A stretch of 64,000 nt of DNA, taken from the NCBI GenBank assembly GCA_001873435.1, contig MNZB01000004.1, positions 14,030-78,029 on the forward strand. The letters are read 5' to 3'. A program made the position numbers and the translations under genes. This DNA comes from Candidatus Pacebacteria bacterium CG2_30_36_39. Lineage in GTDB: Bacteria > Patescibacteriota > Microgenomatia > UBA1400 > PJMF01. Positions 14,350 to 58,514 of the stretch are shown here, in pieces; within the stretch, counting starts at the first letter, position 1; each line of letters opens with the position of its first letter. The notes under the pieces are model-generated. The model made no database searches. It saw only the letters and a program-made list of their open reading frames with translations, and was not told where the DNA came from.

Positions 14350-14351
14350 AA

Positions 14352-14503: not shown

Positions 14504-14538
14504 AAAAATTATATCAGACTAATATTTATTTGCACAGC

Positions 14539-33273: not shown

Positions 33274-33924
33274 TTATGGTTGGATATAAGCAAAATATTT
33301 AACAGCTATTAAATTTAGATCATTATCAACTAACCAATTAGTAAACATATCAGTTGAACTATTTGGTTTGACCAAAACATTAAAAAGTCTGGTCTTGCTA
33401 TTGTATTCTAATTTAAAAGACTCTGTTTCGACAGGCGCTATGCGTCTGAGCTCCCAAATTTGATCCCACATCATCATTTCTTCAGCTGTTGTGCCAAACC
33501 CAAGGATTGCTCCTGTTGAAATGGGTAGTGCTGGAGTAGGTGTTGCAATGCTGGTCGGTTGTACAGTGGGAATAGCAGTTGGAACAGCGGTTGGAGTTAG
33601 TGCTGGTGTTGGTGTAATGGTCGGAACAACAGTTTGCACCGTTACAATCGCTAATGTTGGAGTAACTACATTTATGGGAGTTGGGGTAATCACAGAAATG
33701 GTTGGGGTAGCTTCTAGGTTTTTAGAATTGACCAAAAGTGTGGATAACTTGCCGCCTTCTATATTATTTTTTTGTGGTTTATCAAGAATTGATAATTCAA
33801 TTTCTTTTTCAGTATCTTGTGGTTGGTCTGGCTTTTTTTCAAACACAAAATAAATAAACAATAATGTAGTAATAATTGCGCATGAAATAATTAAAAATAG
33901 TCCTAGTTTTTTTTGATTATTCAT
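33274..33924 (-). CDS. membrane-anchored/secreted protein with Thr/Pro-rich low-complexity linker
   Basis: N-terminal hydrophobic anchor. About 80 aa of TPT/PTP/AIPT repeats. Confidence 0.5.
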   Translation of the reverse strand: MNNQKKLGLFLIISCAIITTLLFIYFVFEKKPDQPQDTEKEIELSILDKPQKNNIEGGKLSTLLVNSKNLEATPTISVITPTPINVVTPTLAIVTVQTVVPTITPTPALTPTAVPTAIPTVQPTSIATPTPALPISTGAILGFGTTAEEMMMWDQIWELRRIAPVETESFKLEYNSKTRLFNVLVKPNSSTDMFTNWLVDNDLNLIAVKYFAYIQP

Positions 33925-39707: not shown

Positions 39708-40322
39708 ATGACCTCTGTCAAAAATATTTTTCAACCAACAACAGAAAATGAAATAGCTCCAGGCATTCATCGCACTAGCATTGATGGCCTCTTATATATT
39801 CAAAACAAACAATTCATTGACGATCGTGGCTTCTTTGCTGATATCACCGGATTAAAAAATCTAGAAAAAATTATTGGCAAACGCATGGAAATTAAACAGC
39901 TAAACCTAGCCTATTCACATACCAATGTCATTCGTGGCCTACATGCAGAGGGCTGGAACAAACTAGTAACCACATTTACTGGTAAAGCCTTTTCTGCTCT
40001 CGCAGATATACGTCAAACCTCACCAACTTTTGGCAAAGTAGAATACTTTATGTTTGAACCAGAACCAAATAAAGACCTCAGAACTAGTCTCTATGTACCA
40101 ATGGGTGTTGCTAATTCTGTTTGTGTCATTGAAGGCCCAGTATTTTACCATTACGCAGTCGATGCTTTTTATGATGAGCGAGACGTTTCTGGAGACAAAG
40201 CTCTTTCTTTATTTGACCCAGATCTTGCTATTGAATGGCCAATTCCTCGTGAACAAATGATTTTATCTCAAAGAGATGTAGATAGTTTGAGCCTCAAGGA
40301 AATGATTGCTCAAAAAAACTAA
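39708..40322 (+). CDS. rfbC: dTDP-4-dehydrorhamnose 3,5-epimerase (RmlC cupin)
   Basis: FIDDRGFF, RGLHAEGW, and the His/Tyr catalytic pair YHYAVDAFYD. Confidence 0.8.
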   Translation: MTSVKNIFQPTTENEIAPGIHRTSIDGLLYIQNKQFIDDRGFFADITGLKNLEKIIGKRMEIKQLNLAYSHTNVIRGLHAEGWNKLVTTFTGKAFSALADIRQTSPTFGKVEYFMFEPEPNKDLRTSLYVPMGVANSVCVIEGPVFYHYAVDAFYDERDVSGDKALSLFDPDLAIEWPIPREQMILSQRDVDSLSLKEMIAQKN

Positions 40323-42064
40323 TTAATTATTGGTTTCAAAATAGCTAATTCCTGAAATATTTCTGAAAAATTAAATTGTTGATAAAACTTTAAAAGCAAA
40401 TCCAAGTGATTGTCGTAACGAGAATATTTCTCTTGAATTTCAGTGGTTTTTAAAACATCAACATCTTTCGTAATTCTATCTTTTGCCAATGGAGTAATTT
40501 TCTGTACTAAAAAATATTCATTAAGCTTATTTAAAAAACTTTCCCAAATATTTTTATATTCTATTGAACTAGAATTATTTTTTTCAAAATTAAGCTCAAT
40601 TATTTGTGAACCAAAATTATTTTCTATTTGATGATCAATTAAATGAATGGTTGGCTCAGCATCTTGGGTATAAGTATAAAGACTGGATTCTAATAATTCT
40701 CCATCAAAATCACTAGTAATAAACTCAATTGAATATTTTCCTACTTCTGGTTTTTCAATAACCGTAAAAGCCATTGATTTGGCAGTAGAAATATTTTCTT
40801 CCCATTCTTTAGTCTCAATGAGTGTTTGTTCCTCATTATAAAATTTAACCAATACACTTGGATCATGAACAACAACAATGGCACTCAAATCAGTAAAACT
40901 TGGCTGAAAAACTCTTATTGATTGGATCGGTTCATGCTCATGTTCATATTTTTTTTCGAATAAGGGATCTAACAATTTGAACTCATTCAAAACCTGATCA
41001 AAACCATTTAGTACAAAAAAGTGACCAGGTATTTGTGCAATCACTGGCTGCTTAGCTGCTAAAAAAACCTGAGCAGCTTCCCGCCATCCCTGCTTAAGAA
41101 AAGAAAATTCCAGTTTTGGTAGAAGCACTGACTGAGCTTGATCACTTAATATTCTAGTTAGACGTGTGATCGCCCACCAATTAACCAAACCTTCTCCTAA
41201 ATATCCATCTTGCTGATCTATTAACCATTTATTTAAACTAGCTGGATTTAATTCTTCTCCAGAAAGAAATTCTGAAAATCCATGAAAACGCAAAACCATA
41301 GCAGCAGAAGTTAAAGCACATCCCCAACGACTAATTGTTGGCCTATCATTACCAACCCAAAGAGAGGCGCTATCATAAATATCATCACTCCAAAAAGGGT
41401 CATTTTGCCAAAAGTGAATGAGTGAAATTGACTCATCAGCTTCTTTATTTATTTGATTATTTTTTAAAATTGTCTTAACAGGAAAAACACTGCCAGGAGA
41501 CATTTTTATTCCCCAACTACCCACGCTAGCAATTTCATCATAGGTCCAGTCATAAAAATGAAACACTTCAACATTATCAACTAAGATACTCAACAGCCCA
41601 TTCTTTCTAGAAATACTTATCAAATAACTTTGCCCAATATTCCAATTAAAATTAATACCTCTTGCCAACATTTCTTGACCACCAATAAAATGATTTACCC
41701 ACAAAGCTCCAGCCGAGAAATGTAATTGATAATAGTTTTTGTTATCCACAAACCCCCAGACCAAATTATGATCAACACCAAACTGAGGAATTAAATCAAA
41801 CTGCCAAATAAAATCTTTAGTTGGTAAAAAATATTCTGCCTTTGTAATTAAAAAAGTTGGAGGAGTTACCTGGTCAGCTCTACCAGAAACAACTTCATTC
41901 TCGCTTCCTTCATTGCTCAACTCCCAAAACACACTAGGACTTAAATTAAATTCAGACCATTGAGTAAAAGCAAATATTCTTTCCGTAGAAAAAATAAATA
42001 TTAATAAATAAAAAATAAATACTTTAATAAAAAAATAAAATCTTTGCACCAAACAATTAAACAA
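40319..42064 (-). CDS. secreted C39-like peptidase domain protein (581 aa)
   Basis: N-terminal signal/TM. Cys block RWGCALTSAAMVLRFHG and His block IPGHFFVLNGFD...DP. Confidence 0.55.
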   Translation of the reverse strand: MFNCLVQRFYFFIKVFIFYLLIFIFSTERIFAFTQWSEFNLSPSVFWELSNEGSENEVVSGRADQVTPPTFLITKAEYFLPTKDFIWQFDLIPQFGVDHNLVWGFVDNKNYYQLHFSAGALWVNHFIGGQEMLARGINFNWNIGQSYLISISRKNGLLSILVDNVEVFHFYDWTYDEIASVGSWGIKMSPGSVFPVKTILKNNQINKEADESISLIHFWQNDPFWSDDIYDSASLWVGNDRPTISRWGCALTSAAMVLRFHGFSEFLSGEELNPASLNKWLIDQQDGYLGEGLVNWWAITRLTRILSDQAQSVLLPKLEFSFLKQGWREAAQVFLAAKQPVIAQIPGHFFVLNGFDQVLNEFKLLDPLFEKKYEHEHEPIQSIRVFQPSFTDLSAIVVVHDPSVLVKFYNEEQTLIETKEWEENISTAKSMAFTVIEKPEVGKYSIEFITSDFDGELLESSLYTYTQDAEPTIHLIDHQIENNFGSQIIELNFEKNNSSSIEYKNIWESFLNKLNEYFLVQKITPLAKDRITKDVDVLKTTEIQEKYSRYDNHLDLLLKFYQQFNFSEIFQELAILKPIIN

Positions 42065-42088: not shown

Positions 42089-45000
42089 TTATTCAGCAGC
42101 CTCTTCATCAATAAAATCACCTGACTCAACCTTGATCTTTTTATCTTTTCTCTTCAAAACAGACACCAACAAAAACAACGTCGTTATTAACACAACAACA
42201 AAAGCTACCAAAGTAATCAACTCAGGCAAATAGAAAACAACCAATGTCCCCTTACCACTAACTTGCCACAGATTAGCCCAATTATTTAAACGATAGTGAG
42301 GTAAAAATTCATTACCACCCTTTACAAAACCCAACCATAAATCATCATAAGTCTGATCTAATCCCAAGTAACATTTTTCTCCCAAACATTGAAATGACAC
42401 TTCATGAATAGCATCGAAAGAAAGCTTATCTTCACCAACCTTAATCCTATTTAAAACAGCTTCTTGACCAATCAAACTAAGCTTTAATTGAGCCAACTGA
42501 TTGAGAGCTAATGGTTGTAAATAAATACCATCTATTTCATTCACACTCTCTTTGCCAAAAGACCTTGTTTCCCAATTTAAATAAAAGGAAGAAAAAGAAT
42601 CTTTACTAACCTGATTTAAAGTAATATACGAATCAAATACTTCATCCTGCTCCAAATAATCCTCGGCTAAAACATTAGAATCTCCATAATTAATAAAAAA
42701 CTTAGTTCCCCGACCACGATAGTTTTTCCCCATCAACCTCATCACATAAGAGTAGGAAGATGAAATATCCTTAAAACTATAACCATTGCAATTTACGGCT
42801 CTTGAATCAGCCTCATAAATTGCTCGACCATTTTCAAATTTAGTTTTTATCTCTCCTACTTGGTGATTAACACAATTAACTGAAGGATTTTGAGCCAAAT
42901 CCAACTTAATCACAGGGAAATATGAAATCAAACCAAGCTGCTCAATTTCAGGGGTTCGCAACACCAAATCTCTTTGAATAATCGCCCAATCTGGATCTAA
43001 TTCAGCAACTTCTATTGAATCGAATGAAGAACCTTTTGCCATTCCATTTTCATAAGAAATTTCGGTGGGCTTAGCAGCATATTCAATTTTAATTTTTTCT
43101 CCAACAACCAAATCCAAAACTGGATAAATAGGTTGGTTTTTATCAACAATAACCCCAAAGTTATTAAAGAAAATTACTATGCTATCAGCAACAAAGTTAT
43201 CTTCTAATTTAAACTCAAAATTCTCTAACTGAGGCAACTTAAGACTTTGCTCTCCCAAGACCAAAGTTGATTGAGGAAAATCCACAGACACCTTACCATC
43301 AGTATATTTTATGGCAGCTGGCACAAGATAAGAACTATCCTTATATCCTGGCATTAACAGCTCATACACAGCCCTAGGAACTTTGTTTACAACCTTAACC
43401 CCCAAATCATCAAATTGAAGATTTTTGGGATAGTGAGTCATTAATTCAGAAAAAGGAAACACAACATTTGGTGATTCACTGGTTAAAACATAATCACCCT
43501 CTTGTTGATATAAATAGTCTGTTCTAGTTCTATTATTATTAGCTTCAGCAAATTGAACCTTATTCGGCACCAAAATCTCTGTTTCTTTGTCAATAGCATT
43601 ACGCTCATAAATACTTAGAAAGTCCTTAGACCAAAGCTCTGAAAAGCCAGCTGCATGCAACAAAGCATGGTCAACAGCAAAGTCATGTTGGCGACTAGGA
43701 TCCATCCTAGTTTCATCTACAATCACCAAATCCACATTATATTTTTTAGCAATTTGAGCAAAATGATTGGCATTATAAGTATCAAGAGAAGTTTTTAATT
43801 CATAATAGAAAAAATCATTAGTTTCTATCCAACGATCAAAATCTCTCATTAGCAATGGTTGAGGGAAACCAAAAAAATTAAAACCCATACCTTGATAGCC
43901 ATTACCCTCACGTAAAAACTGCCAATCATAATATTCCCAACCAGCATGAGTAAATTGTGGTAACTGTAAAACTCTCAAGTCTTTGTCTAGAGTATTCATG
44001 TAATCAAACATTTCCTGATACTGAGATGGATATTTAATTTGTAGTTTTTCACTTAAAAAATGACCTTGGAATGAAGGCAATGAAATATAGATTATGATCA
44101 AAAATAAGCCGCCAATTATTGTGTTGGCAGCAAACAACCAAAGCTTTACTATTTTTTTACGAGAACACAAAAATATAGTAATTTTTTCAATTATTCCAAT
44201 AAATAATAAAATCGAAACAAAAGAATAAAGAATTGATAGCTTAGTAAATGGATTGCGAAAAGCCTCACGAAATGTAGCTGATTTATACAGCTTGTCGAGA
44301 ATTACGCTGGTAGGCAATAAATCTACCCAAATAAAAATTAGACAAAAAATATACATCAATAAAACAGCCCAGCGTTTCCAGTTTTTTTCTCGATCAAAAA
44401 TAATAGATAAACTACCTAGAATTGTTAAAATTCCCAAACCCTGCATTAAATATCTGACTAAAGATTTGTTTAAATGACTATCCCATTCATTAAAAATAAG
44501 ATCAAAGTTCTTGTTTTTAAAAGAATAATCCATCCAATTAAATAAATATTGAGTACCAGCAGTTAGGTTCTCAATAGTTCCAGATTCGCGAACACTCCAA
44601 ACAGACTCTGGTGCAAACAACTGATTATCACGGCTTTCTTGAACGTAGCGAGCGTTGTGAGAAACATAATATAAATTAGGTAAAATCCAGTAAGCATTAG
44701 CAAAAAAAGTTAGTAAGCCAACAAAAAAACTCATTTGAATCGCTGACCAAAAAGACCTTTTTTGCAGAGAAACAAAAAAGACATAAAGTAAAGAAAAAAC
44801 TACAGCCAAATAAAAAACGGTTTGCGTATGAGCGCTAGGAGCCATTAAAAACTGTAATAAAATAAAAGAAAAAACCGTTTTAATACTTACTTTATTAATT
44901 AAACTATGGAGATTGAGCAATAGAAATGGCAAGAAAGCAAATTGAATCGTAAACATCTCAAAGCTGATATAAAACTGTTGTAAAGTTAAAATATGTAAAA

Positions 45001-45433
45001 GATAAAAAACTGCGCCCAAACTAGCTAACCAATTCTTAAAATTACCAAGCTTATTGCCTAACCAAATTTTAATCAAATAAAAATACATACCAATGCCACC
45101 TAAAAGATACATTGAAAAAATAAAGACATATCTAATCAAATTAGCTGGTAATAAAATTTTTAATAAAAAAATAAACGGTAAACGTAAAATCTCTGCCGAC
45201 TGCCCCTGAGCAGCTGGACCACCCAATCCCTGATGTTCTACCCAGGCACCAAAAAATACTTGGCGAGCATAACGAGGTAAATCAAATTCTGCTTGGATAT
45301 TATCCCAACCAGAATAAATAGAGTTTGGATGGATATTAACTACAGCAATCCACAAAGCCACCACTACCACTAATAGTAGTGGTAATAAACTCAAAATTTT
45401 AGCTAATTTAAATTGCTGAAATAGCTTTTGCAA
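42089..45433 (-). CDS. large polytopic membrane protein with big extracytoplasmic domain and C-terminal TM anchor (possibly a GT-C/YfhO-like glycosyltransferase)
   Basis: About 14 N-terminal TM helices, a roughly 600-aa soluble region and a final TM helix plus acidic tail. TTG start. Family call is speculative. Confidence 0.45.
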   Translation of the reverse strand: MQKLFQQFKLAKILSLLPLLLVVVVALWIAVVNIHPNSIYSGWDNIQAEFDLPRYARQVFFGAWVEHQGLGGPAAQGQSAEILRLPFIFLLKILLPANLIRYVFIFSMYLLGGIGMYFYLIKIWLGNKLGNFKNWLASLGAVFYLLHILTLQQFYISFEMFTIQFAFLPFLLLNLHSLINKVSIKTVFSFILLQFLMAPSAHTQTVFYLAVVFSLLYVFFVSLQKRSFWSAIQMSFFVGLLTFFANAYWILPNLYYVSHNARYVQESRDNQLFAPESVWSVRESGTIENLTAGTQYLFNWMDYSFKNKNFDLIFNEWDSHLNKSLVRYLMQGLGILTILGSLSIIFDREKNWKRWAVLLMYIFCLIFIWVDLLPTSVILDKLYKSATFREAFRNPFTKLSILYSFVSILLFIGIIEKITIFLCSRKKIVKLWLFAANTIIGGLFLIIIYISLPSFQGHFLSEKLQIKYPSQYQEMFDYMNTLDKDLRVLQLPQFTHAGWEYYDWQFLREGNGYQGMGFNFFGFPQPLLMRDFDRWIETNDFFYYELKTSLDTYNANHFAQIAKKYNVDLVIVDETRMDPSRQHDFAVDHALLHAAGFSELWSKDFLSIYERNAIDKETEILVPNKVQFAEANNNRTRTDYLYQQEGDYVLTSESPNVVFPFSELMTHYPKNLQFDDLGVKVVNKVPRAVYELLMPGYKDSSYLVPAAIKYTDGKVSVDFPQSTLVLGEQSLKLPQLENFEFKLEDNFVADSIVIFFNNFGVIVDKNQPIYPVLDLVVGEKIKIEYAAKPTEISYENGMAKGSSFDSIEVAELDPDWAIIQRDLVLRTPEIEQLGLISYFPVIKLDLAQNPSVNCVNHQVGEIKTKFENGRAIYEADSRAVNCNGYSFKDISSSYSYVMRLMGKNYRGRGTKFFINYGDSNVLAEDYLEQDEVFDSYITLNQVSKDSFSSFYLNWETRSFGKESVNEIDGIYLQPLALNQLAQLKLSLIGQEAVLNRIKVGEDKLSFDAIHEVSFQCLGEKCYLGLDQTYDDLWLGFVKGGNEFLPHYRLNNWANLWQVSGKGTLVVFYLPELITLVAFVVVLITTLFLLVSVLKRKDKKIKVESGDFIDEEAAE

Positions 45434-45535
45434 AACATCTCATTGTAGAACAATATTGAGTAAGTTTTGTAGGCTCATTTTATTTTACAAACCAAAAGAA
45501 ACAAAAATTATTAATAATTATTACCTTTGGTTTGT

Positions 45536-45556
45536 TGGGGCGGTCTAGGACCGCCC
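45536..45556 (-). terminator. perfect GC-rich palindrome GGGGCGGTC-TAG-GACCGCCCC downstream of the GC-rich lipoprotein gene (no U-tract)
   Basis: 9-bp perfect stem 28 nt past the stop of 45584..46414. Confidence 0.4.
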
Positions 45557-45583
45557 CAACATGGGTATAACAAGGTGAGAAAA

Positions 45584-46414
45584 TTACGGAGCAACAACGT
45601 TGCTGGCAACCAAGGTCCATCCCGTCGCGTTTGTATGGCGAAGAATGGTCCAGGCGCCGTTGTTCACATCGAAGAAAACGACGTAAACAACTTTGCAACC
45701 CTGAAGTCCGCAGTTGTACAAGTGGCTGTTCGCCGCTTGCTGATAGATGTACGGCTGATCCATGAAGCCGCCAGCATTCTCTTTGACCTGATATTGCGTC
45801 ACCGTGGTTGCGCCAGGGTGATATCTGGAGAAGTTAACATCCAGATTCAGGTCTCCGGGTCCAGAATTGCGACCGCGGAGATAGATTTGCCATTCCACAT
45901 CCGGCTGGGGATTGGCGACAATCGAGTAGTTGCCAAACTTCATGACAACTCCAGCAGTAGTAGTCAGCTGGTAACCGCCTTCGTGAACGAATTTGGTTGC
46001 GGTGGCATTTTCCAACGACTCTTGCGAGTCAGGAGAAATGAGAGCCGCACTCGGATTGGCTTTGCGTTCGGCTTCGGTTTCGACGCCGACGACGCCGGGT
46101 TTGCCGCAGAAATCTTTACCGCCGGGAAGTGTGCAGACGTTTTCGTTGAAAACGCCATCTGCCCAACGATAAGCGGTGACCTTATAAGGGGCACCTTTGA
46201 TTTCGTAGCTCGGAGGTTGGATCTTGGCATTGCTTTGAGAAGGGCTGTCGTTTGATGGACCGCCTTGACCGGTGGAAACCGATTGAGTCGGGGCTACCGC
46301 AGTCACAGCAGGCTGTTCGCCGCCAGACATGTGGAAGTTACCGATATCAATGTTCCAGGGAGCGCAAGCGCTCAAAAGCACGGTCAACAACACTAGGGTT
46401 AGGGTCTTTTTCAT
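45584..46414 (-). CDS. lipoprotein, compositionally atypical (high GC, E. coli-like codon usage), function unknown
   Basis: MKKTLTLVLLTVLLSAC lipobox. RBS AAGGAG. GC-rich codons (CTG, GCG, CCG). A plus-strand shadow ORF overlaps it. Confidence 0.6.
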   Translation of the reverse strand: MKKTLTLVLLTVLLSACAPWNIDIGNFHMSGGEQPAVTAVAPTQSVSTGQGGPSNDSPSQSNAKIQPPSYEIKGAPYKVTAYRWADGVFNENVCTLPGGKDFCGKPGVVGVETEAERKANPSAALISPDSQESLENATATKFVHEGGYQLTTTAGVVMKFGNYSIVANPQPDVEWQIYLRGRNSGPGDLNLDVNFSRYHPGATTVTQYQVKENAGGFMDQPYIYQQAANSHLYNCGLQGCKVVYVVFFDVNNGAWTILRHTNATGWTLVASNVVAP

Positions 46415-46772
46415 CTTTCGTTACTCCTTGAGAGGTTTGATAGCAGTTTCGCCGCTCTAGTCCACGCTGGACTAGAGTCAGTTCACGCAATTAAAAACCA
46501 TATAAAAAGTTTCTAATTGCGCGAACCGATGGCTCAACTTCAAACTTCAAAAGAAGTAAAATTTCTCACTTGTTAAAGAGCGACTGAATTAACAGTCACC
46601 GTTGCTAAAAAGTATTTCGCTTAGAACATTCGTAGTGAATGAGTAGCGAGCAAGCTCTTCAGCCAAAAATCTTTTTATAAAAAACAAGACTTTTGGCTAA
46701 AGATCTGAAAGCAAAAAATTATTTTAATTAACTAATACTCTTGGTATATATATGTTTTTTTACACCAGGCTT

Positions 46773-46813
46773 AAGTATAGCACTAAAAGACCATTTTGTC
46801 AATGTTATAGGAT
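46773..46813 (-). promoter_or_regulatory. sigma70 promoter TTGACA-17-TATACT with upstream TATCCTATA element (drives 45584..46414 through a ~350-nt structured leader)
   Basis: Minus strand TATCCTATAACATTGACAaaatggtcttttagtgcTATACTtaagcctgg. Confidence 0.55.
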
Positions 46814-46845
46814 ATATTTTGGCTTATTTTATAATTAAAAGTTTC

Positions 46846-46875
46846 AGATCCCTGCCCATGTAAATGGACAGGGAT
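46846..46875 (-). terminator. hairpin GATCCCTG-N14-CAGGGATC downstream of 46892..47320
   Basis: 8-bp stem 17 nt after the stop. On the minus strand it is followed by TGAAACTTTT. Confidence 0.4.
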
Positions 46876-46891
46876 CTTGGCCAATTACGGC

Positions 46892-47320
46892 CTATGGAGT
46901 TGGTGTTGGGGTTGGAGTAAGAGTAAACACCGGCGTGAGCGTCGGTGGTGGTGTGGGTGTCCAAGACTGAGCAGTTGCAGTTTTTGCTGCCACCGCTATT
47001 GCCTTGTTCTCTGCCTCGATCTTTTTATCGATCTCGGAGATATCACCTTCAACCTTTTCGAGTTGAGCCTTTCCTTCTTCGATTTTTGCTTCGATCTCAA
47101 CTTTGCTGTCAAGCAAAATCAATTTCTGACAAATCAGAGGAAGTTCATCCTCTGGCATACTGGTGATTGAACCGAATTCATTTTCTCGGCCAATCACTTT
47201 TAATGCATCGTAGCAGGAGGCTGCCGCTTTTTCCTTTTCAGTTGCGAAAAGGCCGGAGCAGCTGCTCAACACAAAAATCCCTACTACTGCCAACAACAGG
47301 AAGATGTGAATCTTCTTCAT
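46892..47320 (-). CDS. small lipoprotein with coiled-coil segment and C-terminal Thr/Pro repeat tail, compositionally atypical (higher GC)
   Basis: MKKIHIFLLLAVVGIFVLSSC lipobox. A/E/K-rich heptad-like stretch. C-terminal TPTPPPTLTPVFTLTPTPTPTP. RBS GGAG. Confidence 0.6.
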   Translation of the reverse strand: MKKIHIFLLLAVVGIFVLSSCSGLFATEKEKAAASCYDALKVIGRENEFGSITSMPEDELPLICQKLILLDSKVEIEAKIEEGKAQLEKVEGDISEIDKKIEAENKAIAVAAKTATAQSWTPTPPPTLTPVFTLTPTPTPTP

Positions 47321-47403
47321 TGTTGCTCCGTCACTCCATGAGATTTAGATCCGTCACAGCGCAAGCGCTGTAACGATCCCCCTTCTAGAGAAGTGACCTG
47401 GTA

Positions 47404-47444
47404 AGTATAACAAAATAGATCAAAATAGTCAATGTTATAGGATA
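47404..47444 (-). promoter_or_regulatory. sigma70 promoter TTGACT-17-TATACT with upstream TATCCTATA element (drives 46892..47320)
   Basis: Minus strand TATCCTATAACATTGACTattttgatctattttgtTATACTtaccagg. The leader contains the palindrome ACAGCGC-AA-GCGCTGT. Confidence 0.55.
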
Positions 47445-52435: not shown

Positions 52436-52509
52436 CGGAGAGTGGCGCAGATGGCTAGCGCGCGCGCATGGGGTGCGCGAGGTCGCAGGTTCGAGTCCTG
52501 TCTCTCCGA
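52436..52509 (+). tRNA. tRNA-Pro (anticodon GGG), C1:G72 acceptor, no encoded CCA
   Basis: CGGAGAG-TG-GCGC-AGATGGCTA-GCGC-G-CGCGC-ATGGGGT-GCGCG-AGGTC-GCAGG-TTCGAGT-CCTGT-CTCTCCG-A. Cloverleaf is consistent. Anticodon loop AUGGGGU. Confidence 0.85.
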
Positions 52510-54143
52510 CAATCAGAAAAAAAGCCCTTTTTCTCAAAAGTAGCGAATGGTTCTTCTAATTGATACTTCGCTACTTTTTTGTTATTCACACGTAGGTTCG
52601 AGAAGATTTTTTCAATCAAATAATTTTTTCTACTTAGAGATTTGGTTTTGACGATCTCATCGGGCAATTTCTTAACTTGTTCGGTGAATTTAGAAAATGT
52701 CAAAATACTTGATTTGTTATTCTCAATCTGTTTTTCAATCTCAATTAATGCTGATTCAAATTCTTTGAGCTTTTTTCTATTTTCTTTCAGCTCTGATTCA
52801 TAATCTTCTCGTAGCTCTCGATCAGATATATCAAGTAGATACTTTTTGATTTTGATATTTTGCTGATTTAGACCAGCTTTTTGCGTAACAATTGATTTTT
52901 GTTCTACCCTGAGTAAAGCTAACCTATCTTTTTGAACCCTTTTAGACTCCTCTACATAATGCTCATATACCTCTTTTGTGGCAATGTTGGTATTTTTAAG
53001 AAAATCAACAACAAAATCTACTAAAACTCTAGCTCTAACGTGGTGTTGAACTTTTTTACCTGAGATATTTTTAAAAGAACATTTTTTGTTGTCACATCTA
53101 AAATAAAACTTGTTACCTTTGCTTGGTGAAGTGATTGAAACATACATTGTTTCACCACAATGATCACAAATAACTCGACCATTAAGTAGTCTACCCTTAA
53201 CATTCTTTTTCACTCTCTTGTCATATCTCCTCAAGAATGATTCTCTGTTTTTCTTAGTAATATTATTGATCTTGAAAAAGTGAGCAGGGCTAACTACTGG
53301 CACGAAATCAAATATCTCCATCAAATTAATAACCTTATCGCCATATCGCATTACCCCTGCATAAATTGGATCTGAAAACATTTCACTCAGACGTTTTTGA
53401 TCAAATGAATAGGGTTTTCTTTGATTTATCTTATTCGTTACTGGCTTAGTAAAATTATGTGTGTTGAGATACTCCTCAATTTCTCTATATATAGCCCCCT
53501 CAAACCTCATTTTCCAAGCTTCCCTGATCAAGACATAGTTATCACCATCGGGCTGTAATCGGTGCATATCGTCTTTAAAATAACCGTGTTTTGGTACTGT
53601 TAGCCAACCACCCTCTTCGGCTCTCTTATGAAGCCCTCTTTTTACATCTTTACTCAGAGCATCTGAATATTGTTTTGATAAAACAAAAGTAATGCCCAAC
53701 ATCACCTTGCCTGATTCATTATTTTCAAAGGAAAAAGAGGGAAATTTTAGATCCTTGATAATTCCTTTATCAAGCAGATCAATAATTTCACCTGCTTCTT
53801 TCATATTTCGAGCTAAACGATTTGGATGCCAAGCTAAAATACCTTGATACTTACCAGCCTTTACATCTTCAATCATTTTTCTAAACTTAGGACGAATATC
53901 AGGGTCTTTAGCACTCTCTTTTTCCTGAATATATGGCTCTATAACAATGAGCTTCTCTTTTCGAGCAAAGTTAAGGCACTCATCAATCTGGTCTGGAAGT
54001 GATTTCTCTTGTTTATCTTTGTCTTTTGTTGATCTTCGAGCATACAAAACATACTTGTATGATTTTGGATCATCTTCAACAATGGTATCTGCTTTTAAAT
54101 TTTTGAAGTATTCAAAAAAATCTTTTTGAGTAATATCAACCAT
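52455..54143 (-). CDS. large serine recombinase (resolvase/invertase catalytic domain + recombinase domain + zinc ribbon + coiled coil)
   Basis: N-terminal YARRSTKDKDKQEKSLPDQ (catalytic Ser), zinc ribbon CDHCGETMYVS...FRCDNKKC, 562 aa. The 3' 55 nt overlap the tRNA-Pro on the opposite strand. Confidence 0.85.
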   Translation of the reverse strand: MVDITQKDFFEYFKNLKADTIVEDDPKSYKYVLYARRSTKDKDKQEKSLPDQIDECLNFARKEKLIVIEPYIQEKESAKDPDIRPKFRKMIEDVKAGKYQGILAWHPNRLARNMKEAGEIIDLLDKGIIKDLKFPSFSFENNESGKVMLGITFVLSKQYSDALSKDVKRGLHKRAEEGGWLTVPKHGYFKDDMHRLQPDGDNYVLIREAWKMRFEGAIYREIEEYLNTHNFTKPVTNKINQRKPYSFDQKRLSEMFSDPIYAGVMRYGDKVINLMEIFDFVPVVSPAHFFKINNITKKNRESFLRRYDKRVKKNVKGRLLNGRVICDHCGETMYVSITSPSKGNKFYFRCDNKKCSFKNISGKKVQHHVRARVLVDFVVDFLKNTNIATKEVYEHYVEESKRVQKDRLALLRVEQKSIVTQKAGLNQQNIKIKKYLLDISDRELREDYESELKENRKKLKEFESALIEIEKQIENNKSSILTFSKFTEQVKKLPDEIVKTKSLSRKNYLIEKIFSNLRVNNKKVAKYQLEEPFATFEKKGFFSDCRRDRTRTCDLAHPMRAR

Positions 54144-54160
54144 ATCATCATTTTAAACCT

Positions 54161-54640
54161 TTAAGATGGTGGTGTAAGAGTGTAACCCATATTATCTAGT
54201 ATTCTTTGATACGCACCTAGTAAGTTATTAATTGTTTTTGGATCATTTTTAACACTCTCTATTGCTTGATTTTCGGCTTCTTTGATCTCATCTCGACTGA
54301 ACTCTTCCTTTGTTGCTCTGCTGTTTGTTGCAACCCATTGAATGAACTTGATCTGATCTCTGGTAAGTCCAGAGCCACCTGCTTGTTTGGTTTTAATCAA
54401 TTCTAATTCGTTGCTAACAATCTCGGCTACTACTATTGACAGGTGGTTTTGGGCTACCTCAATTCTTTCCGCAAATTCTGAATTTTCAGATTGCAAATCA
54501 TAGATGGTTGACTTTGGTATTTGGGCTTTAAGACAGGCTTTATTGATACTCAAACCAGCCTTTAAGTATGGTTCTAGTTTTCGGAAGAGTGTATCAACTT
54601 GTTTATCACTTAGGGCTGGTCTGCCTATATTTTGACTCAT
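54161..54640 (-). CDS. HTH DNA-binding protein resembling phage terminase small subunit N-terminus (tentative)
   Basis: GRPALSDKQVDTLFRKLEPYLKAGLSINKACLKAQIPKSTIYDL follows the GRP...e.i...G.s...c...gis..T pattern of TerS-type HTH domains. Confidence 0.4.
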   Translation of the reverse strand: MSQNIGRPALSDKQVDTLFRKLEPYLKAGLSINKACLKAQIPKSTIYDLQSENSEFAERIEVAQNHLSIVVAEIVSNELELIKTKQAGGSGLTRDQIKFIQWVATNSRATKEEFSRDEIKEAENQAIESVKNDPKTINNLLGAYQRILDNMGYTLTPPS

Positions 54641-54707
54641 ACTTTAATTATAAAAGAAATAAATCAGATTTTTCTGTTTTTGATGTGTTTATAATGCGTT
54701 ATAAAGA

Positions 54708-54740
54708 ATGCAAAAAGGGCTAATGTTTAATTAGCCCTTT
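54708..54740 (-). terminator. intrinsic terminator AAAGGGCTAAT-gttta-ATTAGCCCTTT plus U-run, after the Ltp gene
   Basis: Perfect 11-bp stem followed by TTTTTGCATTC on the minus strand. Confidence 0.6.
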
Positions 54741-54767
54741 AGTATTCGATTAAACAGATTGGTGATG

Positions 54768-55316
54768 TTATAAACCTACAGCATCAGCTCCATAACTGGC
54801 TTGTTCTGTTGTAAAGCCTTCAAACTCTAATTGATTTATTAAGCTTTCTCTTGAATAACCAGAAATATCTAGGTACGACTTAGCCTTTTTTGAGGCTTGT
54901 TCATTCCAATCAGCCCCAACTGCATCAACTGCATAAGTAGCATCTTCTGTAGAGAACTTTTCAAACTCTAGTTGTTTTATTAAGCCACTTCTTGAATAGC
55001 CTGAAATACTCAAATATGACTTTGCTTTTCTAACAGCATTTTTTTGAGATACAGTTTCGGAAGCATTACTATCTTCCGATTTGGTTGTGTCACTTTCTTC
55101 AATGACTTCTGTATTAGGTGATATGGTATTAGATTGGCTAGTTGGTGTATCACTACCACCAGAACTAGCTCCAATTACAATAAAGAGAAGGATAATTCCT
55201 AGAATACCAGTTAATATCGGGTGACGTTGTGCCCAATTACCCTGCTTTTCTTGACAATACGGACATTTTTTTGCTTTGTTATCGATTTCTTTTTGACAGC
55301 TACGACATTTTTTCAT
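54768..55316 (-). CDS. Ltp-family (host cell surface-exposed lipoprotein) superinfection-exclusion-like protein with N-terminal zinc ribbon and TM anchor
   Basis: CRSCQKEIDNKAKKCPYCQ ribbon, TM helix, Ser/Thr-rich linker, then two copies of AKSYL.ISGYSR.GLI.QLEFE.F..E.A.Y..DAVG (the Ltp repeat known from TP-J34-like prophages). Confidence 0.7.
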   Translation of the reverse strand: MKKCRSCQKEIDNKAKKCPYCQEKQGNWAQRHPILTGILGIILLFIVIGASSGGSDTPTSQSNTISPNTEVIEESDTTKSEDSNASETVSQKNAVRKAKSYLSISGYSRSGLIKQLEFEKFSTEDATYAVDAVGADWNEQASKKAKSYLDISGYSRESLINQLEFEGFTTEQASYGADAVGL

Positions 55317-55358
55317 AGGGTAACCCTTTCGTTGTTCTAATCTTGTGGTTAATTATAT

Positions 55359-55405
55359 AGCAAATTGGGTGTTTACAACATAACTAATCCAATGTCTACA
55401 ACGTG
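55359..55405. promoter_or_regulatory. operator-like repeat cluster between divergent Ltp and XRE genes
   Basis: GTGTTTACAACATAACTAATCCAATGTCTACAACGTGGTGTAAACAT: imperfect inverted repeat (GTGTTTACA / TGTAAACAt) and direct repeat TACAAC. Confidence 0.35.
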
Positions 55406-55438
55406 GTGTAAACATAGGAATGGCACAACAATTAGAAT

Positions 55439-55711
55439 GTGTCATCTGCTAAATATAAACCATCATTGTCTAAACCTGAACAAGATAAATTAAGAAAACA
55501 ATTTACTCGAAAATTAGCAATTCATCTCAGGTCTGTTAGAGAGGAAAAAGGTCTTACTCAGGAAGACTTGGCTTTTAAAGCTGGAATCAACACAGCTTAT
55601 TACAGCCATTTAGAGCGTGGTGTTTATAGTCCAACTATGTTTGTAATTTGGAAAATAGCAGAAGCTCTTAAAATTGATTTAGAAAATTTTATGAAAGGTT
55701 TTGACTATTAA
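55439..55711 (+). CDS. XRE-family (Cro/CI-type) HTH transcriptional regulator
   Basis: LRSVREEKGLTQEDLAFKAGINTAYYSHLERG is the canonical HTH_XRE. Confidence 0.8.
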   Translation: MSSAKYKPSLSKPEQDKLRKQFTRKLAIHLRSVREEKGLTQEDLAFKAGINTAYYSHLERGVYSPTMFVIWKIAEALKIDLENFMKGFDY

Positions 55712-55752
55712 GTAGCAAATACATAATTAATTCGGTGAGATTAATGTAGATA

Positions 55753-55890
55753 TTAATAGTCTAAGGTAATAACATCACCATCGTCACTTATAGCCTGATC
55801 ATCATCCAAATCTTGGCTGGGTTCATTATCTTGGTTGTCATTATCAACCTCATCAACTAAATCGGTTAAATAATCTTTTTGTGAGTTCAT
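55753..55890 (-). CDS. 45-aa highly acidic small protein (own ORF call, below the track size cutoff)
   Basis: Own translation MNSQKDYLTDLVDEVDNDNQDNEPSQDLDDDQAISDDGDVITLDY. Inside the integrative element. Confidence 0.3.
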   Translation of the reverse strand: MNSQKDYLTDLVDEVDNDNQDNEPSQDLDDDQAISDDGDVITLDY

Positions 55891-56133
55891 ATCACTATTA
55901 TAGCGTGATTGCTTGATATTTTTCTTCACTAATTTTTACATTTCCCTTGAAGTAATCTGTATAGTAATCAACAACTATTGATAATTCTGGTAGTTGAGAG
56001 ATGATGGTATCATAGAGAAGTTCGGGATAGCTTTCCCGTTTTCGACAAAACTTTTTAATCATATAGTTTTCATCCAATAAATTAGCTTTGGCTGGGTAAA
56101 AAGAGCTATAATGTCTTTTTTAAAGAAAAAAAT

Positions 56134-57970: not shown

Positions 57971-58170
57971 GATAGATTCTGCAAAATAAATAAAGTTGTG
58001 TTATCGCAACACTTATTTTTGTTTAGTCTGCAGTAAGTTCTTTAAAAAAACTTGTTGTAATTATTCTTTGGCGATCAGCACTCAAGATATCTATTTTGGT
58101 ATTTTGAGCGCTGTTCACCAAGAATGGCCATCTTACCCATTCCGGGTGAGACGTAGATTTGGAGGAAGTT

Positions 58171-58380
58171 ATGAACTTCGCAATCCTATTCTTTGGCGGG
58201 TTATTGCTGATTGTGGTGGGCTTTGTGCTCATCTTGATCAACATGGCTAAAGCCAGAAAACGCGAGTCAACCGGTAAAACTATCGGCGGACACTGCGGCG
58301 GCATGGCAATTATGTTCGTAGGAATTGTCGTTACCCTCTCGGGAACGATTGGTTGGCTCATCGCCAACTTTCCTTTCTAA
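58171..58380 (+). CDS. 69-aa two-TM small membrane protein, compositionally atypical (higher GC)
   Basis: MNFAILFFGGLLLIVVGFVLILINMAKARKRESTGKTIGGHCGGMAIMFVGIVVTLSGTIGWLIANFPF. RBS GGAGG 5 nt upstream of the ATG. The track start is an upstream TTG. Confidence 0.55.
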   Translation: MNFAILFFGGLLLIVVGFVLILINMAKARKRESTGKTIGGHCGGMAIMFVGIVVTLSGTIGWLIANFPF

Positions 58381-58403
58381 CGAATTGCTCAACAAGTTAT
58401 TCA

Positions 58404-58436
58404 AAGCGCCGGGTTCTGCCTGGCGCTTTTTTTATT
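58404..58436 (+). terminator. canonical intrinsic terminator AAGCGCCgGG-ttctg-CCtGGCGCTT plus T8
   Basis: GC-rich stem followed by TTTTTTTATTT, 24 nt after the stop of the small membrane protein gene. Confidence 0.6.
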
Positions 58437-58514
58437 TCAACAATCAGAGATATAATGTAAGTATTAACAATAATCATAGCTTTTTTTGATATAGCTTGAT
58501 ATAATATAGGACAT

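What the first reader, a model, noticed from the sequence alone, without database searches (positions are those of the whole stretch)
46846..47320. Second higher-GC cassette: coiled-coil lipoprotein with C-terminal (TP)n tail, own promoter and terminator
The 142-aa lipoprotein (lipobox LSSC) has an alpha-helical E/K/A-rich segment and ends in TPTPPPTLTPVFTLTPTPTPTP. A similar Thr/Pro-rich linker occurs in the unrelated secreted protein at 33274..33924, which may indicate a shared cell-surface tethering or glycosylation motif. The gene is flanked by the P3 promoter and a hairpin terminator. It sits directly beside the first lipoprotein cassette, giving a tandem of two independently promoted foreign-looking lipoprotein genes.
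Basis: seen in the sequence. Interest (0 to 1): 0.6.

Follow-up and report, generated by a model that had tools for sequence, protein, structure and literature searches.

The report
Fast-evolving coiled-coil surface lipoprotein gene
This is a real gene for a small membrane-anchored stalk protein with a proline/threonine tail, found only in a narrow group of ultra-small groundwater bacteria; its odd base composition is inherited and actively kept up, so it is not a sign of recent foreign origin.

Summary
ORF 46892..47320 (minus strand) encodes a 142-aa protein with a rule-conforming lipobox (Cys21), an eight-heptad coiled coil and a Thr/Pro tail. It has its own near-consensus extended -10 promoter, a stem-loop 5' UTR and a terminator hairpin. 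GC3 is 0.46 against 0.24 +/- 0.05 for the other window genes.

The "foreign cassette" reading does not hold. The window is a Candidatus Pacebacteria genome from metagenome assemblies. Exhaustive searches find only four full-length relatives, each directly downstream of the SBP_bac_5 gene wherever that flank is on the contig. All have the same GC3 excess, and promoter, UTR stem and terminator are conserved. dN/dS is 0.12-0.17. The protein diverges about four times faster than its neighbour (42% vs 80% identity).

I read it as an expression-optimised, monocistronic gene for an abundant envelope lipoprotein stalk. Its tail probably enters the wall zone and may be O-glycosylated. Function is inferred, not shown. 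It has no member-level match to any described family.

Seen in passing:
- A roughly 240-nt structured leader RNA with strong covariation, absent from Rfam, lies just downstream.
- Near-identical genomes have swapped the module of second lipoprotein plus giant membrane protein.

The parts
47404..47444 (-). Promoter of the small lipoprotein gene. It comprises the upstream conserved 17-mer TATCCTATAACATTGAC (47444-47428, overlapping the -35), -35 TTGACT (47432-47427), a 17-nt spacer with the extended -10 TG, and -10 TATACT (47409-47404).
   Evidence: Found by the consensus scan. The identical 17-mer occurs only twice in the window; the other copy heads the next cassette. The same element, some copies with a 1-nt insertion, sits right after the SBP stop codon upstream of the small gene in L011, L013, L094, L095, L014 and L015. 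It ranks among the best sigma-70-like sites in the 64 kb.
47321..47398 (-). 5' UTR that forms a long nested stem-loop starting near the predicted 5' end. The GGAG ribosome-binding site is left free just before the ATG.
   Evidence: MFE -33.3 kcal/mol, z = -5.2. The outer stem is conserved in four homologous loci, with both-side changes at 5 of its 7 pairs.
46892..47320 (-). Coding sequence of the 142-aa pre-lipoprotein (stop codon 46892-46894).
   Evidence: ORF list. It is 100% identical to a protein annotated as hypothetical in Candidatus Pacebacteria metagenome-assembled genomes. There are four full-length homologues. dN/dS is 0.12-0.17.
47258..47320 (-). Signal peptide with lipobox VLSS|C (residues 1-21; the Cys21 codon is 47260-47258).
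   Evidence: The PROSITE-type lipobox rule (recalled from memory) is met in all five family members. Pfam LPAM_1 is sub-threshold at 13 vs 20 bits. It is the only hydrophobic segment in the protein.
47141..47257 (-). N-proximal helical head (residues 22-60). It contains the invariant Cys36. The invariant PL.CQ motif with Cys64 begins at residue 61, at the start of the coiled-coil part.
   Evidence: Alignment A6 invariant columns C36, P61, L62, C64, Q65. AF2 helices 28-42 and 46-52. A disulfide between Cys36 and Cys64 is inferred, not tested.
46967..47140 (-). Coiled-coil stalk, residues 61-118, about eight heptads, ending in the conserved TATAQ motif.
   Evidence: AF2 gives a single helix over 57-119, with block-mean pLDDT 90-96 over residues 71-110. 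The same heptad register holds in all five members.
46895..46966 (-). Pro/Thr-rich C-terminal tail (residues 119-142), predicted disordered.
   Evidence: Translation. pLDDT is below 55 with no secondary structure. A P/T-rich tail is present in every homologue. At DNA level there is only a short 4-copy hexamer array.
46846..46877 (-). Terminator hairpin of the small gene (14-bp stem, 4-nt loop).
   Evidence: Inverted repeat I5. The 62-nt stretch containing it folds at -28.7 kcal/mol, z = -6.2. Homologous hairpins followed by T-runs occur in L011, L013, L094 and L095, with CCCCG/CGGGG in place of CCCTG/CAGGG.
46774..46814 (-). Neighbouring unit: the paralogous promoter (same 17-mer, TTGACA-17-TG-TATACT) that drives the leader RNA and the 276-aa lipoprotein gene.
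   Evidence: It is conserved with at most 3 mismatches in L008, L011, L014, L015, L016, L017 and L086.
46477..46714 (-). Neighbouring unit: a structured leader RNA of about 240 nt between that promoter and the 276-aa gene.
   Evidence: Covariance model R1 finds it in 7 distinct loci. Of the cells, 93.7% are paired and 31 of 72 pairs show compensatory changes, against 4-10 in slid controls. There is no Rfam match.
45584..46414 (-). Neighbouring unit: the 276-aa lipoprotein gene (lipobox LLSAC), GC 0.53 and GC3 0.58. Its terminator hairpin is at 45533-45561.

Best explanation
**Shown**
- The gene is real and under purifying selection.
- It is inherited vertically within a narrow Pacebacteria (Microgenomatia-type) sub-clade.
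- It was added there as a complete unit (promoter, structured 5' UTR, coding sequence, terminator). The insertion point lies between the SBP_bac_5 gene and an older promoter, whose sequence its own promoter duplicates.

**Inferred: what the protein does**
- It has three parts: a small helical head, probably stapled by a Cys36-Cys64 disulfide; a coiled-coil stalk of about 9 nm; and a stiff Pro/Thr tail of about 24 residues that reaches into the wall or S-layer zone.
- I read it as an abundant envelope spacer or tether, or a surface-coat protein.
- It would work like Braun's lipoprotein or like Gram-positive lipoproteins with glycosylated disordered tails, without being related to them.

**Inferred: why the composition is odd**
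- Several features fit a design for high, stable expression: a near-consensus extended -10 promoter, a stem-loop at the 5' end of the mRNA, a free GGAG site and a strong terminator. So does codon use shifted to C-ending codons (NNC fraction 0.53 vs 0.18).
- I take the raised GC to be a selected property of the genes in this slot, not a trace of a foreign donor.
For: **Anatomy**
- ORF, lipobox, helix, heptads and tail.

**Real gene**
- dN/dS is 0.12-0.17 in three pairs.
- Cys21, Cys36, Cys64 and the PL.CQ motif are invariant.

**Vertical descent and clade restriction**
- Only P0007, P0009, P0010 and P0011 turn up among 1.8 billion and 5.8 billion proteins.
- P0007 (L011) and P0009 (L013) lie directly downstream of the SBP_bac_5 gene; the short contigs carrying P0010 and P0011 have a partial upstream ORF in the same position.
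- The gene is absent where the SBP stop codon is followed within 42-86 nt by the ancestral promoter (L008, L016, L017). It is also absent in L086.

**Maintained composition**
- GC3 is 0.44-0.54 in every homologue against 0.18-0.31 in flanking genes, although SBP dS between the window and L011 is 1.7.
- The shift is mainly NNC over NNT.
- The other Thr/Pro-rich protein has normal codon usage.
- In the swapped module only the lipoprotein gene is GC-rich.

**Expression signals conserved**
-.

**Fast protein evolution, typical of exposed envelope proteins**
- Identity is 42% against 80% for the SBP, and dN is 0.62 against 0.14.

**Envelope and glycan context**
- Nearby lie a roughly 1,100-aa polytopic membrane protein with invariant acidic residues in its first loop, a GT2 gene in L011 and L014, a C39-like protein and RmlC.

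**Precedent**
- C-terminal Ser/Thr-rich disordered tails of streptococcal lipoproteins are O-glycosylated by a GT-A plus GT-C enzyme pair, and this protects them from proteolysis (PMC11092751).
Against: - No expression, lipidation or glycosylation data exist for this organism.
- No ribosomal-protein or elongation-factor genes lie in the window. So I could not test whether C-ending codons mark highly expressed genes here.
- The oligomeric state of the coiled coil is unknown.
- The large membrane protein has no detectable family or solved relative, so its role in glycosylation is conjecture.
- In L014 vs L015 the small gene has three times the synonymous divergence of the SBP gene (0.42 vs 0.13). 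This hints at allele exchange at the locus, which would complicate a purely vertical history.
Confidence: 0.5

Rival explanations
1. Exchangeable surface-antigen cassette. The locus would be a recombination hot spot where lipoprotein alleles are swapped between related strains, using the conserved promoter and terminator sequences as homology handles. The payoff would be escape from phages or altered host contact. The odd composition would then reflect a shared allele pool rather than expression.
For: - L014 and L015 have 98% identical SBP proteins. Their second lipoproteins are unrelated and their large membrane proteins are only 28% identical.
- The leader upstream of the second lipoprotein gene aligns closely in both genomes up to its start codon.
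- The small gene of that pair has dS 0.42 against 0.13 for the SBP gene.
- Three unrelated protein families occupy the second slot in different genomes.
- The whole stretch from the small gene to the C39-like gene diverges far more than the housekeeping flank.
Against: - The small gene itself is not replaced by an unrelated family in any genome seen.
- Its phylogenetic spread matches the SBP sub-clade.
- dN/dS is well below 1.
- A shared pool inside an AT-rich clade still needs selection to stay GC-rich.
- No size or sequence variants were recorded in the sampled population: the only other member of the 90% cluster is also 142 aa.
Confidence: 0.2
2. Recently acquired foreign cassette. This is the first reader's view: the gene came by horizontal transfer from a higher-GC donor and has not yet taken on the host's composition.
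For: - GC is 0.46 against 0.35 and GC3 is 0.46 against 0.24, with sharp boundaries.
- The unit is self-contained, with its own promoter and terminator.
- A serine-recombinase element lies about 5 kb away.
Against: - Homologues directly follow the SBP_bac_5 gene in related genomes and show the same anomaly.
- No homologue exists outside the clade or in viral contigs.
- The promoter is a copy of a clade-wide native promoter.
- There are no flanking repeats or integrase at the cassette.
- Synonymous sites are saturated between lineages, yet the composition persists.
Confidence: 0.06
3. Accessory partner of the adjacent SBP_bac_5 protein. The stalk lipoprotein would hold or space the membrane-anchored solute-binding protein encoded just upstream.
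For: - The gene is always immediately downstream of the SBP gene.
- The tail motif TATAQSWTPTP resembles the seven N-terminal TATAxxWTDTPTPT repeats that precede an SBP_bac_5 domain in the unrelated protein P0008. This is a fusion-type hint.
Against: - The two genes are separate transcription units with very different evolutionary rates (80% vs 42% identity).
- Relatives with a well conserved SBP lack the small gene (L008, L016, L017, L086, L018).
- The P0008 match is confined to low-complexity sequence.
Confidence: 0.1
4. Not a functional gene: a chance ORF in a GC-rich intergenic stretch.
For: There is no family annotation. Antisense ORFs of 68-97 aa overlap it.
Against: - The reading frame is conserved in five lineages, with invariant Cys residues and heptads.
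- dN/dS is 0.12-0.17.
- Promoter, ribosome-binding site and terminator are conserved.
Confidence: 0.02

Closest known systems
Braun's lipoprotein Lpp of Escherichia coli (Pfam LPP)
   Same: It is a small lipobox lipoprotein whose mature part is mostly one coiled-coil helix. It is a monocistronic gene with a strong promoter, a stable structured mRNA and a strong terminator. Its proposed role is an abundant envelope spacer or tether. (The properties of Lpp are from general knowledge.)
   Different: - No sequence or profile similarity.
- The host is a candidate-phyla-radiation bacterium, generally regarded as having a single membrane (general knowledge, not tested here).
- There is no C-terminal Lys for peptidoglycan linkage; the protein ends in TPTPTP.
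- It has an extra two-Cys helical head and a Pro/Thr tail.
- It is twice as long.
Streptococcal membrane-associated proteins with Ser/Thr-rich disordered tails (for example the lipoprotein PrsA), glycosylated by GtrB plus the YfhO-family GT-C enzyme PgtC2 or by the Pgf system (PMC11092751)
   Same: It is a lipid-anchored extracytoplasmic protein that ends in a hydroxy-amino-acid-rich disordered tail. Related loci carry a GT2 gene next to a large polytopic membrane protein. That is the gene pair such a pathway needs.
   Different: - The tail is Pro/Thr rather than Ser/Thr.
- There is no foldase domain.
- The window itself has no adjacent GT2 gene.
- The large membrane protein gave no YfhO or other GT-C family hit at E up to 5.
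- Glycosylation is untested.
Mycoplasma variable surface lipoproteins (Vlp, Vsa and similar)
   Same: The promoter, 5' UTR and signal-peptide region are conserved while the mature region diverges fast. The C-terminus is extended and low in complexity. The proposed role is a surface coat. (The properties of Vlp/Vsa are from general knowledge.)
   Different: - No multigene family and no long tandem repeat array; only four hexamer copies.
- No homopolymer or invertible switch.
- No size variants in the population.
- No sequence similarity.
Cbp1-family collagen-binding glycoprotein adhesin lipoproteins of Bacteroides (NCBIfam NF052320; PMC3949742)
   Same: This is the best library hit. Residues 5-110 align to profile positions 2-106 (E = 0.0019). 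Both are lipoproteins, and Cbp1 is a glycoprotein.
   Different: The score is 17.7 bits against a cut-off of 90. The match covers the signal peptide plus a generic helical region, and the rest of the 286-position profile is missing. It is not a member.
Pro/Thr-rich spacer modules of extracytoplasmic proteins, as in window ORF 33274..33924 and the TATAxxWTDTPTPT repeats of protein P0008
   Same: The composition is the same and the sequence is predicted to be extended and disordered. It lies directly after a membrane anchor or helix.
   Different: In those proteins the stretch links an anchor to a globular domain. Here nothing follows it, in any of the five family members.

Membership tests
Bacterial lipoproteins (Lgt/LspA substrates) | N-terminal signal peptide with positive n-region, hydrophobic core and lipobox [LVI][ASTVI][GAS]C, with Cys within about the first 35 residues. 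| tested here: met
   MKKIHIFLLLAVVGIFVLSS|C. The PROSITE-type rule (recalled from memory) is met in the window protein and all four homologues. It is the only hydrophobic segment. Pfam LPAM_1 is only 13 bits against a cut-off of 20.
Bacterial lipoproteins (Lgt/LspA substrates) | Actual diacylglyceryl modification and signal peptidase II cleavage, with Lgt and LspA present in the genome. | not testable with these tools
   Lgt and LspA were not found among the window ORFs that were scanned.
Braun lipoprotein Lpp (Pfam LPP) | Sequence membership in the LPP family. | tested here: not met
   No LPP hit in Pfam or NCBIfam at E up to 1. No PDB sequence or fold match.
Braun lipoprotein Lpp (Pfam LPP) | C-terminal Lys that is cross-linked to peptidoglycan. 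| tested here: not met
   The C-terminus is ...TPTPTPTP. None of the five family members ends in Lys.
Braun lipoprotein Lpp (Pfam LPP) | Mature protein dominated by a heptad-repeat coiled coil. | tested here: met
   AF2 gives a helix over 57-119. The heptad register is shared in all five members. Oligomeric state was not tested.
Cbp1-family adhesin lipoproteins (NF052320) | Score at or above the curated cut-off of 90 bits over the 286-position profile. | tested here: not met
   17.7 bits, covering profile positions 2-106 only.
Variable surface lipoproteins of the Vlp/Vsa type | Long tandem-repeat C-terminal region with size variation, or phase-variable promoter elements. | tested here: not met
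   There is only a 4-copy hexamer array. Both members of the 90% cluster are 142 aa, and all contigs read carry the identical protein. No homopolymer tract lies in the promoter.
O-glycosylated disordered-tail lipoproteins (GtrB plus GT-C pathway) | Extracytoplasmic disordered tail rich in hydroxy amino acids. | tested here: met
   Residues 119-142 are 80% T+P in the best 20-aa window and are predicted disordered.
O-glycosylated disordered-tail lipoproteins (GtrB plus GT-C pathway) | Presence of a GT-A Und-P-sugar synthase and a GT-C transferase, and demonstrated glycan on the tail. | tested here: inconclusive
   A GT2 gene is adjacent in L011 and L014 but not in the window. The 1114-aa protein has 9-10 transmembrane segments and an invariant GWDN..EF first loop, but no family or PDB hit. 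The glycan itself is not testable here.
Sortase or other C-terminal sorting-signal proteins | LPXTG, PEP-CTERM or a similar motif followed by a hydrophobic segment and a basic tail. | tested here: not met
   There is no such motif and no C-terminal hydrophobic segment.

The most novel reading that the evidence does not exclude
The two cassettes are the front end of a hypervariable envelope island that sets a strain-specific surface type in these ultra-small bacteria. In this reading a clade-wide promoter, and for the second gene a new structured leader RNA, drive interchangeable lipoproteins tuned for high expression. Each lipoprotein is matched to a giant GT-C-like membrane enzyme. The Pro/Thr tail of the small stalk lipoprotein is the O-glycosylation substrate. 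The system would then govern attachment to host cells and sensitivity to phages.
Probability: 0.12. Interest if true: 0.7.

Novelty: new variant of a known kind. Interest (0 to 1): 0.4.

Why it matters
Candidate-phyla-radiation bacteria are thought to live attached to other cells, yet their surface proteins are almost all unannotated. This locus gives a concrete candidate for an abundant envelope protein that can be tested.

It also shows that a compositional island need not mean horizontal transfer. Here the GC3 excess is inherited, gene-specific and maintained across species.

The neighbouring structured leader RNA and the swapped lipoprotein/membrane-protein module point to regulated, strain-variable surface architecture. 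That bears on how these organisms recognise hosts and evade phages.

Tried and rejected
- **Library and structure searches on the 142-aa protein.** Pfam, NCBIfam, PDB-sequence and Foldseek-PDB searches gave only sub-threshold coiled-coil noise.
- **Gene-fission idea.** I tested whether the small protein is the detached N-terminal module of the longer second-slot protein of L086. hhalign found only a 7-residue Pro-rich match, so I rejected it for L086; the L017 protein was not compared.
- **The 97-aa proteins of L014 and L015.** They share position and architecture, but only the signal peptide and about 12 further residues align (probability 61%). Homology is unresolved.
- **Metagenome scan for the promoter 16-mer.** Only 13 of the 120 hits also had a -10 box, and none carried the leader RNA.
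- **Viral contigs.** No relatives.
- **The 276-aa neighbour.** AF2 gave a poor model (pLDDT 53) and Foldseek gave nothing usable.
- **The 1114-aa protein.** Pfam on seven homologues, NCBIfam and a profile search against PDB found nothing.
- **Reference set of highly expressed genes.** I looked in the window for one to test codon bias and found none.
- **Repeat-based mechanisms.** Diversity-generating retroelement or repeat-driven hypermutation: there are no template/variable repeat pairs or long arrays near the gene.
- **Rfam.** Nothing for the leader or the UTR.
Full report
**1. The observation**

- Its N-terminus MKKIHIFLLLAVVGIFVLSS|C fits the standard lipobox rule, with Cys at position 21.
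- It is the only hydrophobic segment in the protein.
- AlphaFold2, run on a three-sequence alignment, gives short helices at 28-42 and 46-52. It gives one long helix at 57-119, with block-mean pLDDT 90-96 over residues 71-110, and a disordered tail from residue 120.
- A single heptad register fits residues 61-118 in all five family members. Hydrophobic residues fill 53-71% of a/d positions, and strongly hydrophobic residues only 7-15% of the other positions.
- The tail TPTPPPTLTPVFTLTPTPTPTP is there.
- In the whole window only this ORF and 33274..33924 contain a strongly Thr/Pro-rich stretch.

The expression signals are also real.

- A promoter-like site TTGACT-17-TG-TATACT lies at 47432..47404. 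It and its twin at 46802..46774 are the only sites in the 64 kb that combine a 17-nt spacer, the extended -10 TG and at least 10 of 12 consensus matches.
- The hairpin 46846-46877 has a 14-bp stem; the 62-nt stretch containing it folds at -28.7 kcal/mol (z = -6.2).

The composition is anomalous at synonymous sites. GC3 is 0.46, against 0.236 +/- 0.046 for 56 other genes (z = 4.9). For the neighbouring 276-aa lipoprotein gene it is 0.58 (z = 7.5).

**2. Where it comes from**

The protein is 100% identical to a hypothetical protein of Candidatus Pacebacteria genomes assembled from metagenomes. It is on record on many contigs from groundwater and other metagenome assemblies of one population, always in the same context.

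- A word-indexed search of 5.8 billion proteins found only the protein itself.
- An exhaustive HMMER scan of 1.8 billion representatives added P0007 (42% identity) and P0009 (38%).
- A profile search added P0010 and P0011.
- P0007 (L011) and P0009 (L013) lie directly downstream of the SBP_bac_5 gene, in L011 within the order RecA - RNase Y - SecG - SBP_bac_5. The short contigs carrying P0010 and P0011 have a partial upstream ORF in the same position.
- No relative exists in viral contigs.

Eighty related loci were fetched through the SBP gene. They show that the small gene occurs only in the sub-clade whose SBP is about 80% or more identical to the window's.

- In more distant relatives (L008, L016, L017) the SBP stop codon is followed within 42-86 nt by a conserved promoter. 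That promoter drives the larger lipoprotein gene.
- L086 has an unrelated insert at this position.
- L018 lacks both lipoprotein genes.

The small-gene promoter carries the same 17-mer, TATCCTATAACATTGAC, as that older promoter. So the unit looks like a clade-specific addition that reused a native promoter. It does not look like an import.

**3. It is a functional, fast-evolving gene**

- The family alignment keeps Cys21, Cys36, Cys64, the PL.CQ motif, the heptad Ile/Leu positions, a TATAQ-like motif and a P/T tail.
- dN/dS is 0.12-0.17 in three pairs. The neighbouring SBP gene gives 0.06-0.085.
- Protein divergence is about four times that of the neighbour. Identity between the window and L011 is 42% against 80%, and dN is 0.62 against 0.14.
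- RecA, RNase Y and SecG are 74-86% identical in the same comparison.

**4. The transcription unit is conserved**

- In every homologous locus the promoter sits right after the SBP stop codon.
- The 5' UTR forms a nested stem that ends just before the GGAG site. In the window its energy is -33.3 kcal/mol (z = -5.2), and the outer stem shows both-side changes at 5 of its 7 pairs across loci.
- The terminator hairpin is conserved with compensatory changes. In L011, L013, L094 and L095 it is followed by a canonical T-run.

So "own promoter and terminator" is right. The gene is monocistronic.

**5. Why the GC is high**

The excess is not caused by Thr/Pro codons. The helical part alone has GC3 0.42, and the other Thr/Pro protein has ordinary codon usage.

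The shift is mostly towards C-ending two-fold codons. The C/(C+T) fraction is 0.53 in the small gene and 0.64 in the 276-aa gene, against 0.18 in the background. G-ending codons rise less.

The same excess is seen in every homologue and in whatever gene sits in the second slot:

| Locus | GC3, small gene | GC3, second-slot gene | GC3, flanking genes |
|---|---|---|---|
| L011 | 0.44 | 0.65 | 0.21-0.31 |
| L014 | 0.54 | 0.62 | 0.18-0.26 |
| L015 | 0.49 | 0.57 | 0.22-0.26 |

Synonymous sites between these lineages are saturated (SBP dS 1.7). A fading transfer signal would therefore have vanished, so the composition must be actively maintained.

The excess is also gene-specific. In the module that differs between L014 and L015, the GT2 and large membrane-protein genes are AT-rich, and only the lipoprotein gene is GC-rich.

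Add the strong promoter, the stem at the 5' end of the mRNA, the free ribosome-binding site and the stable terminator. The simplest reading is then selection for high, stable expression.

I could not confirm this, because the window holds no ribosomal-protein or elongation-factor genes to serve as a reference.

**6. What the protein most likely does**

Shown: a lipobox signal peptide, a helical head with two invariant Cys, a coiled-coil stalk of about 58 residues, and a disordered Pro/Thr tail.

Inferred:
- A stalk of about 9 nm.
- An extended tail of up to about 7 nm that reaches into the wall or S-layer zone.

This would work like an envelope spacer or tether such as Braun's lipoprotein. It could also act as a surface coat.

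The tail resembles the Ser/Thr-rich disordered tails of streptococcal lipoproteins. Those tails are O-glycosylated by a GT-A enzyme plus a GT-C enzyme, which protects them from proteolysis (PMC11092751).

The local context is compatible with that:
- A roughly 1,100-aa protein has 9-10 transmembrane segments, a large outside domain and an invariant GWDN..EF first loop.
- A GT2 gene lies next to it in L011 and L014.
- A C39-like protein and RmlC lie nearby.

However, the large protein has no family or PDB match, so the glycosylation link remains a hypothesis.

**7. Comparison with known families**

- No member-level hit exists.
- The best library match is the Bacteroides Cbp1 adhesin lipoprotein family, at 17.7 bits against a cut-off of 90 (PMC3949742).
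- There is no Lpp match and no C-terminal Lys.
- There is no repeat array or size variation of the mycoplasma Vlp type.
- There is no sorting motif.
- Foldseek and PDB sequence searches found nothing.
- The tail motif matches seven N-terminal TATAxxWTDTPTPT repeats that precede an SBP_bac_5 domain in the unrelated protein P0008. This suggests a general helix-plus-Pro/Thr spacer module, although the similarity is low-complexity.

**8. Things found beside the target**

(a) **A structured leader RNA.** About 240 nt of conserved, structured RNA lie between the second promoter and the 276-aa gene (46477-46714, minus strand).
- A covariance model built from five loci also finds it in L094 and L095/L096.
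- Of the cells, 93.7% pair, and 31 of 72 pairs show compensatory changes, against 4-10 in slid controls.
- Rfam has nothing there.

(b) **A swapped module.** L014 and L015 have 98% identical SBP proteins and 91% identical small lipoproteins. Yet their second lipoproteins are unrelated and their large membrane proteins are only 28% identical. The leader upstream of the second lipoprotein gene aligns closely in both up to its start codon, so a module has been swapped from there on.

(c) **A mobile element.** A roughly 3.5-kb serine-recombinase element carrying an Ltp-like lipoprotein sits at the 3' end of tRNA-Pro in the window. It is missing in a population variant.

**9. Verdict**

The gene founds a small, undescribed, clade-restricted family of coiled-coil lipoproteins with a Pro/Thr tail. 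It carries conserved signals that look built for high expression. It sits at the edge of a hypervariable envelope island.

In itself it is a modest novelty. The locus as a whole is more interesting, because of the maintained GC3 excess, the shared promoter, the new leader RNA and the module swapping.

Noticed in passing
window 46477-46714 (minus strand); also L008 7862-8110, L011 8614-8854, L014 8023-8269, L015 8017-8266, L094 1102-1306, L095 1363-1557: A conserved structured RNA of about 240 nt with eight helices, including two hairpins of 21-22 bp. It lies between the conserved promoter and the larger lipoprotein gene. Of the cells, 93.7% are paired, and 31 of 72 pairs show compensatory changes against 4-10 in slid controls. 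There is no Rfam match. It is retained even where the downstream coding sequence belongs to a different family. This is a candidate new cis-regulatory leader or non-coding RNA.
   Followed up: yes
L014 7953-13373 vs L015 7949-12741; the window equivalent is 42089-46414: Two genomes have 98% identical SBP proteins and 91% identical small lipoproteins. They nevertheless carry unrelated second lipoproteins and large membrane proteins only 28% identical, and L014 has an extra GT2 gene. The leader upstream of the second lipoprotein gene aligns closely in both up to its start codon. Two module types recur across the clade.
   Followed up: partly
window 45584-46414 (minus strand): The neighbouring 276-aa lipoprotein gene has the strongest composition anomaly in the window (GC 0.53, GC3 0.58). 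It has only four distinct homologues in 5.8 billion proteins (five matches including the window's own sequence). One of them sits in the same gene order in a genome of 43% GC and is again GC-rich. AF2 gave a low-confidence beta-rich model with no usable fold match.
   Followed up: partly
window 42089-45433 (minus strand): A 1114-aa membrane protein with no Pfam, NCBIfam or PDB match. It has about 9-10 transmembrane segments in the first 450 residues, an outside domain of about 620 residues and a C-terminal anchor. Its first loop contains an invariant GWDN..EF motif. The topology is reminiscent of GT-C glycosyltransferases.
   Followed up: partly
window about 52436-56050: A roughly 3.5-kb element sits at the 3' end of tRNA-Pro(GGG). 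It carries a serine recombinase (52455-54143), a 159-aa ORF and an Ltp-type surface lipoprotein (54768-55316). In population variant L003 the tRNA is joined directly to the ABC-transporter side, so this is a polymorphic integrative element.
   Followed up: partly
window 14381-14504 (minus strand): A SAM-I/IV riboswitch (54.5 bits, above the gathering score) lies directly upstream of the S-adenosylmethionine synthetase gene 13234-14367.
   Followed up: no
window 58051-58450: Another local GC peak (0.47) overlaps a 114-aa ORF (58023-58367, minus strand, GC3 0.50). The ORF has an implausible sequence and no family hit. It may not be a protein gene.
   Followed up: no
protein P0008 (1027 aa, metagenomic; not in the window): An SBP_bac_5 protein with a C-terminal SH3 domain and seven N-terminal repeats of a helix plus TATAxxWTDTPTPT. 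The repeats match the tail region of the small lipoprotein (E = 1.7e-8 over 40 residues). This looks like a reusable helix-plus-Pro/Thr spacer module.
   Followed up: partly
L158 4137-4822 (metagenome contig): The same promoter 16-mer with a good -10 box precedes a 168-aa lipoprotein gene (lipobox LSAC, Ala/Pro/Thr-rich start). Its GC is 0.46 in a 0.38 contig. This hints that the pairing of promoter and GC-rich lipoprotein gene extends beyond the loci studied.
   Followed up: no
window 39708-40322 (plus strand) and 40319-42064 (minus strand): A dTDP-4-dehydrorhamnose 3,5-epimerase gene (RmlC) and a membrane-anchored Peptidase_C39_2-like protein border the variable island. The C39-like protein also diverges fast: 47% identity to L011 and 30% to L008.
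   Followed up: no
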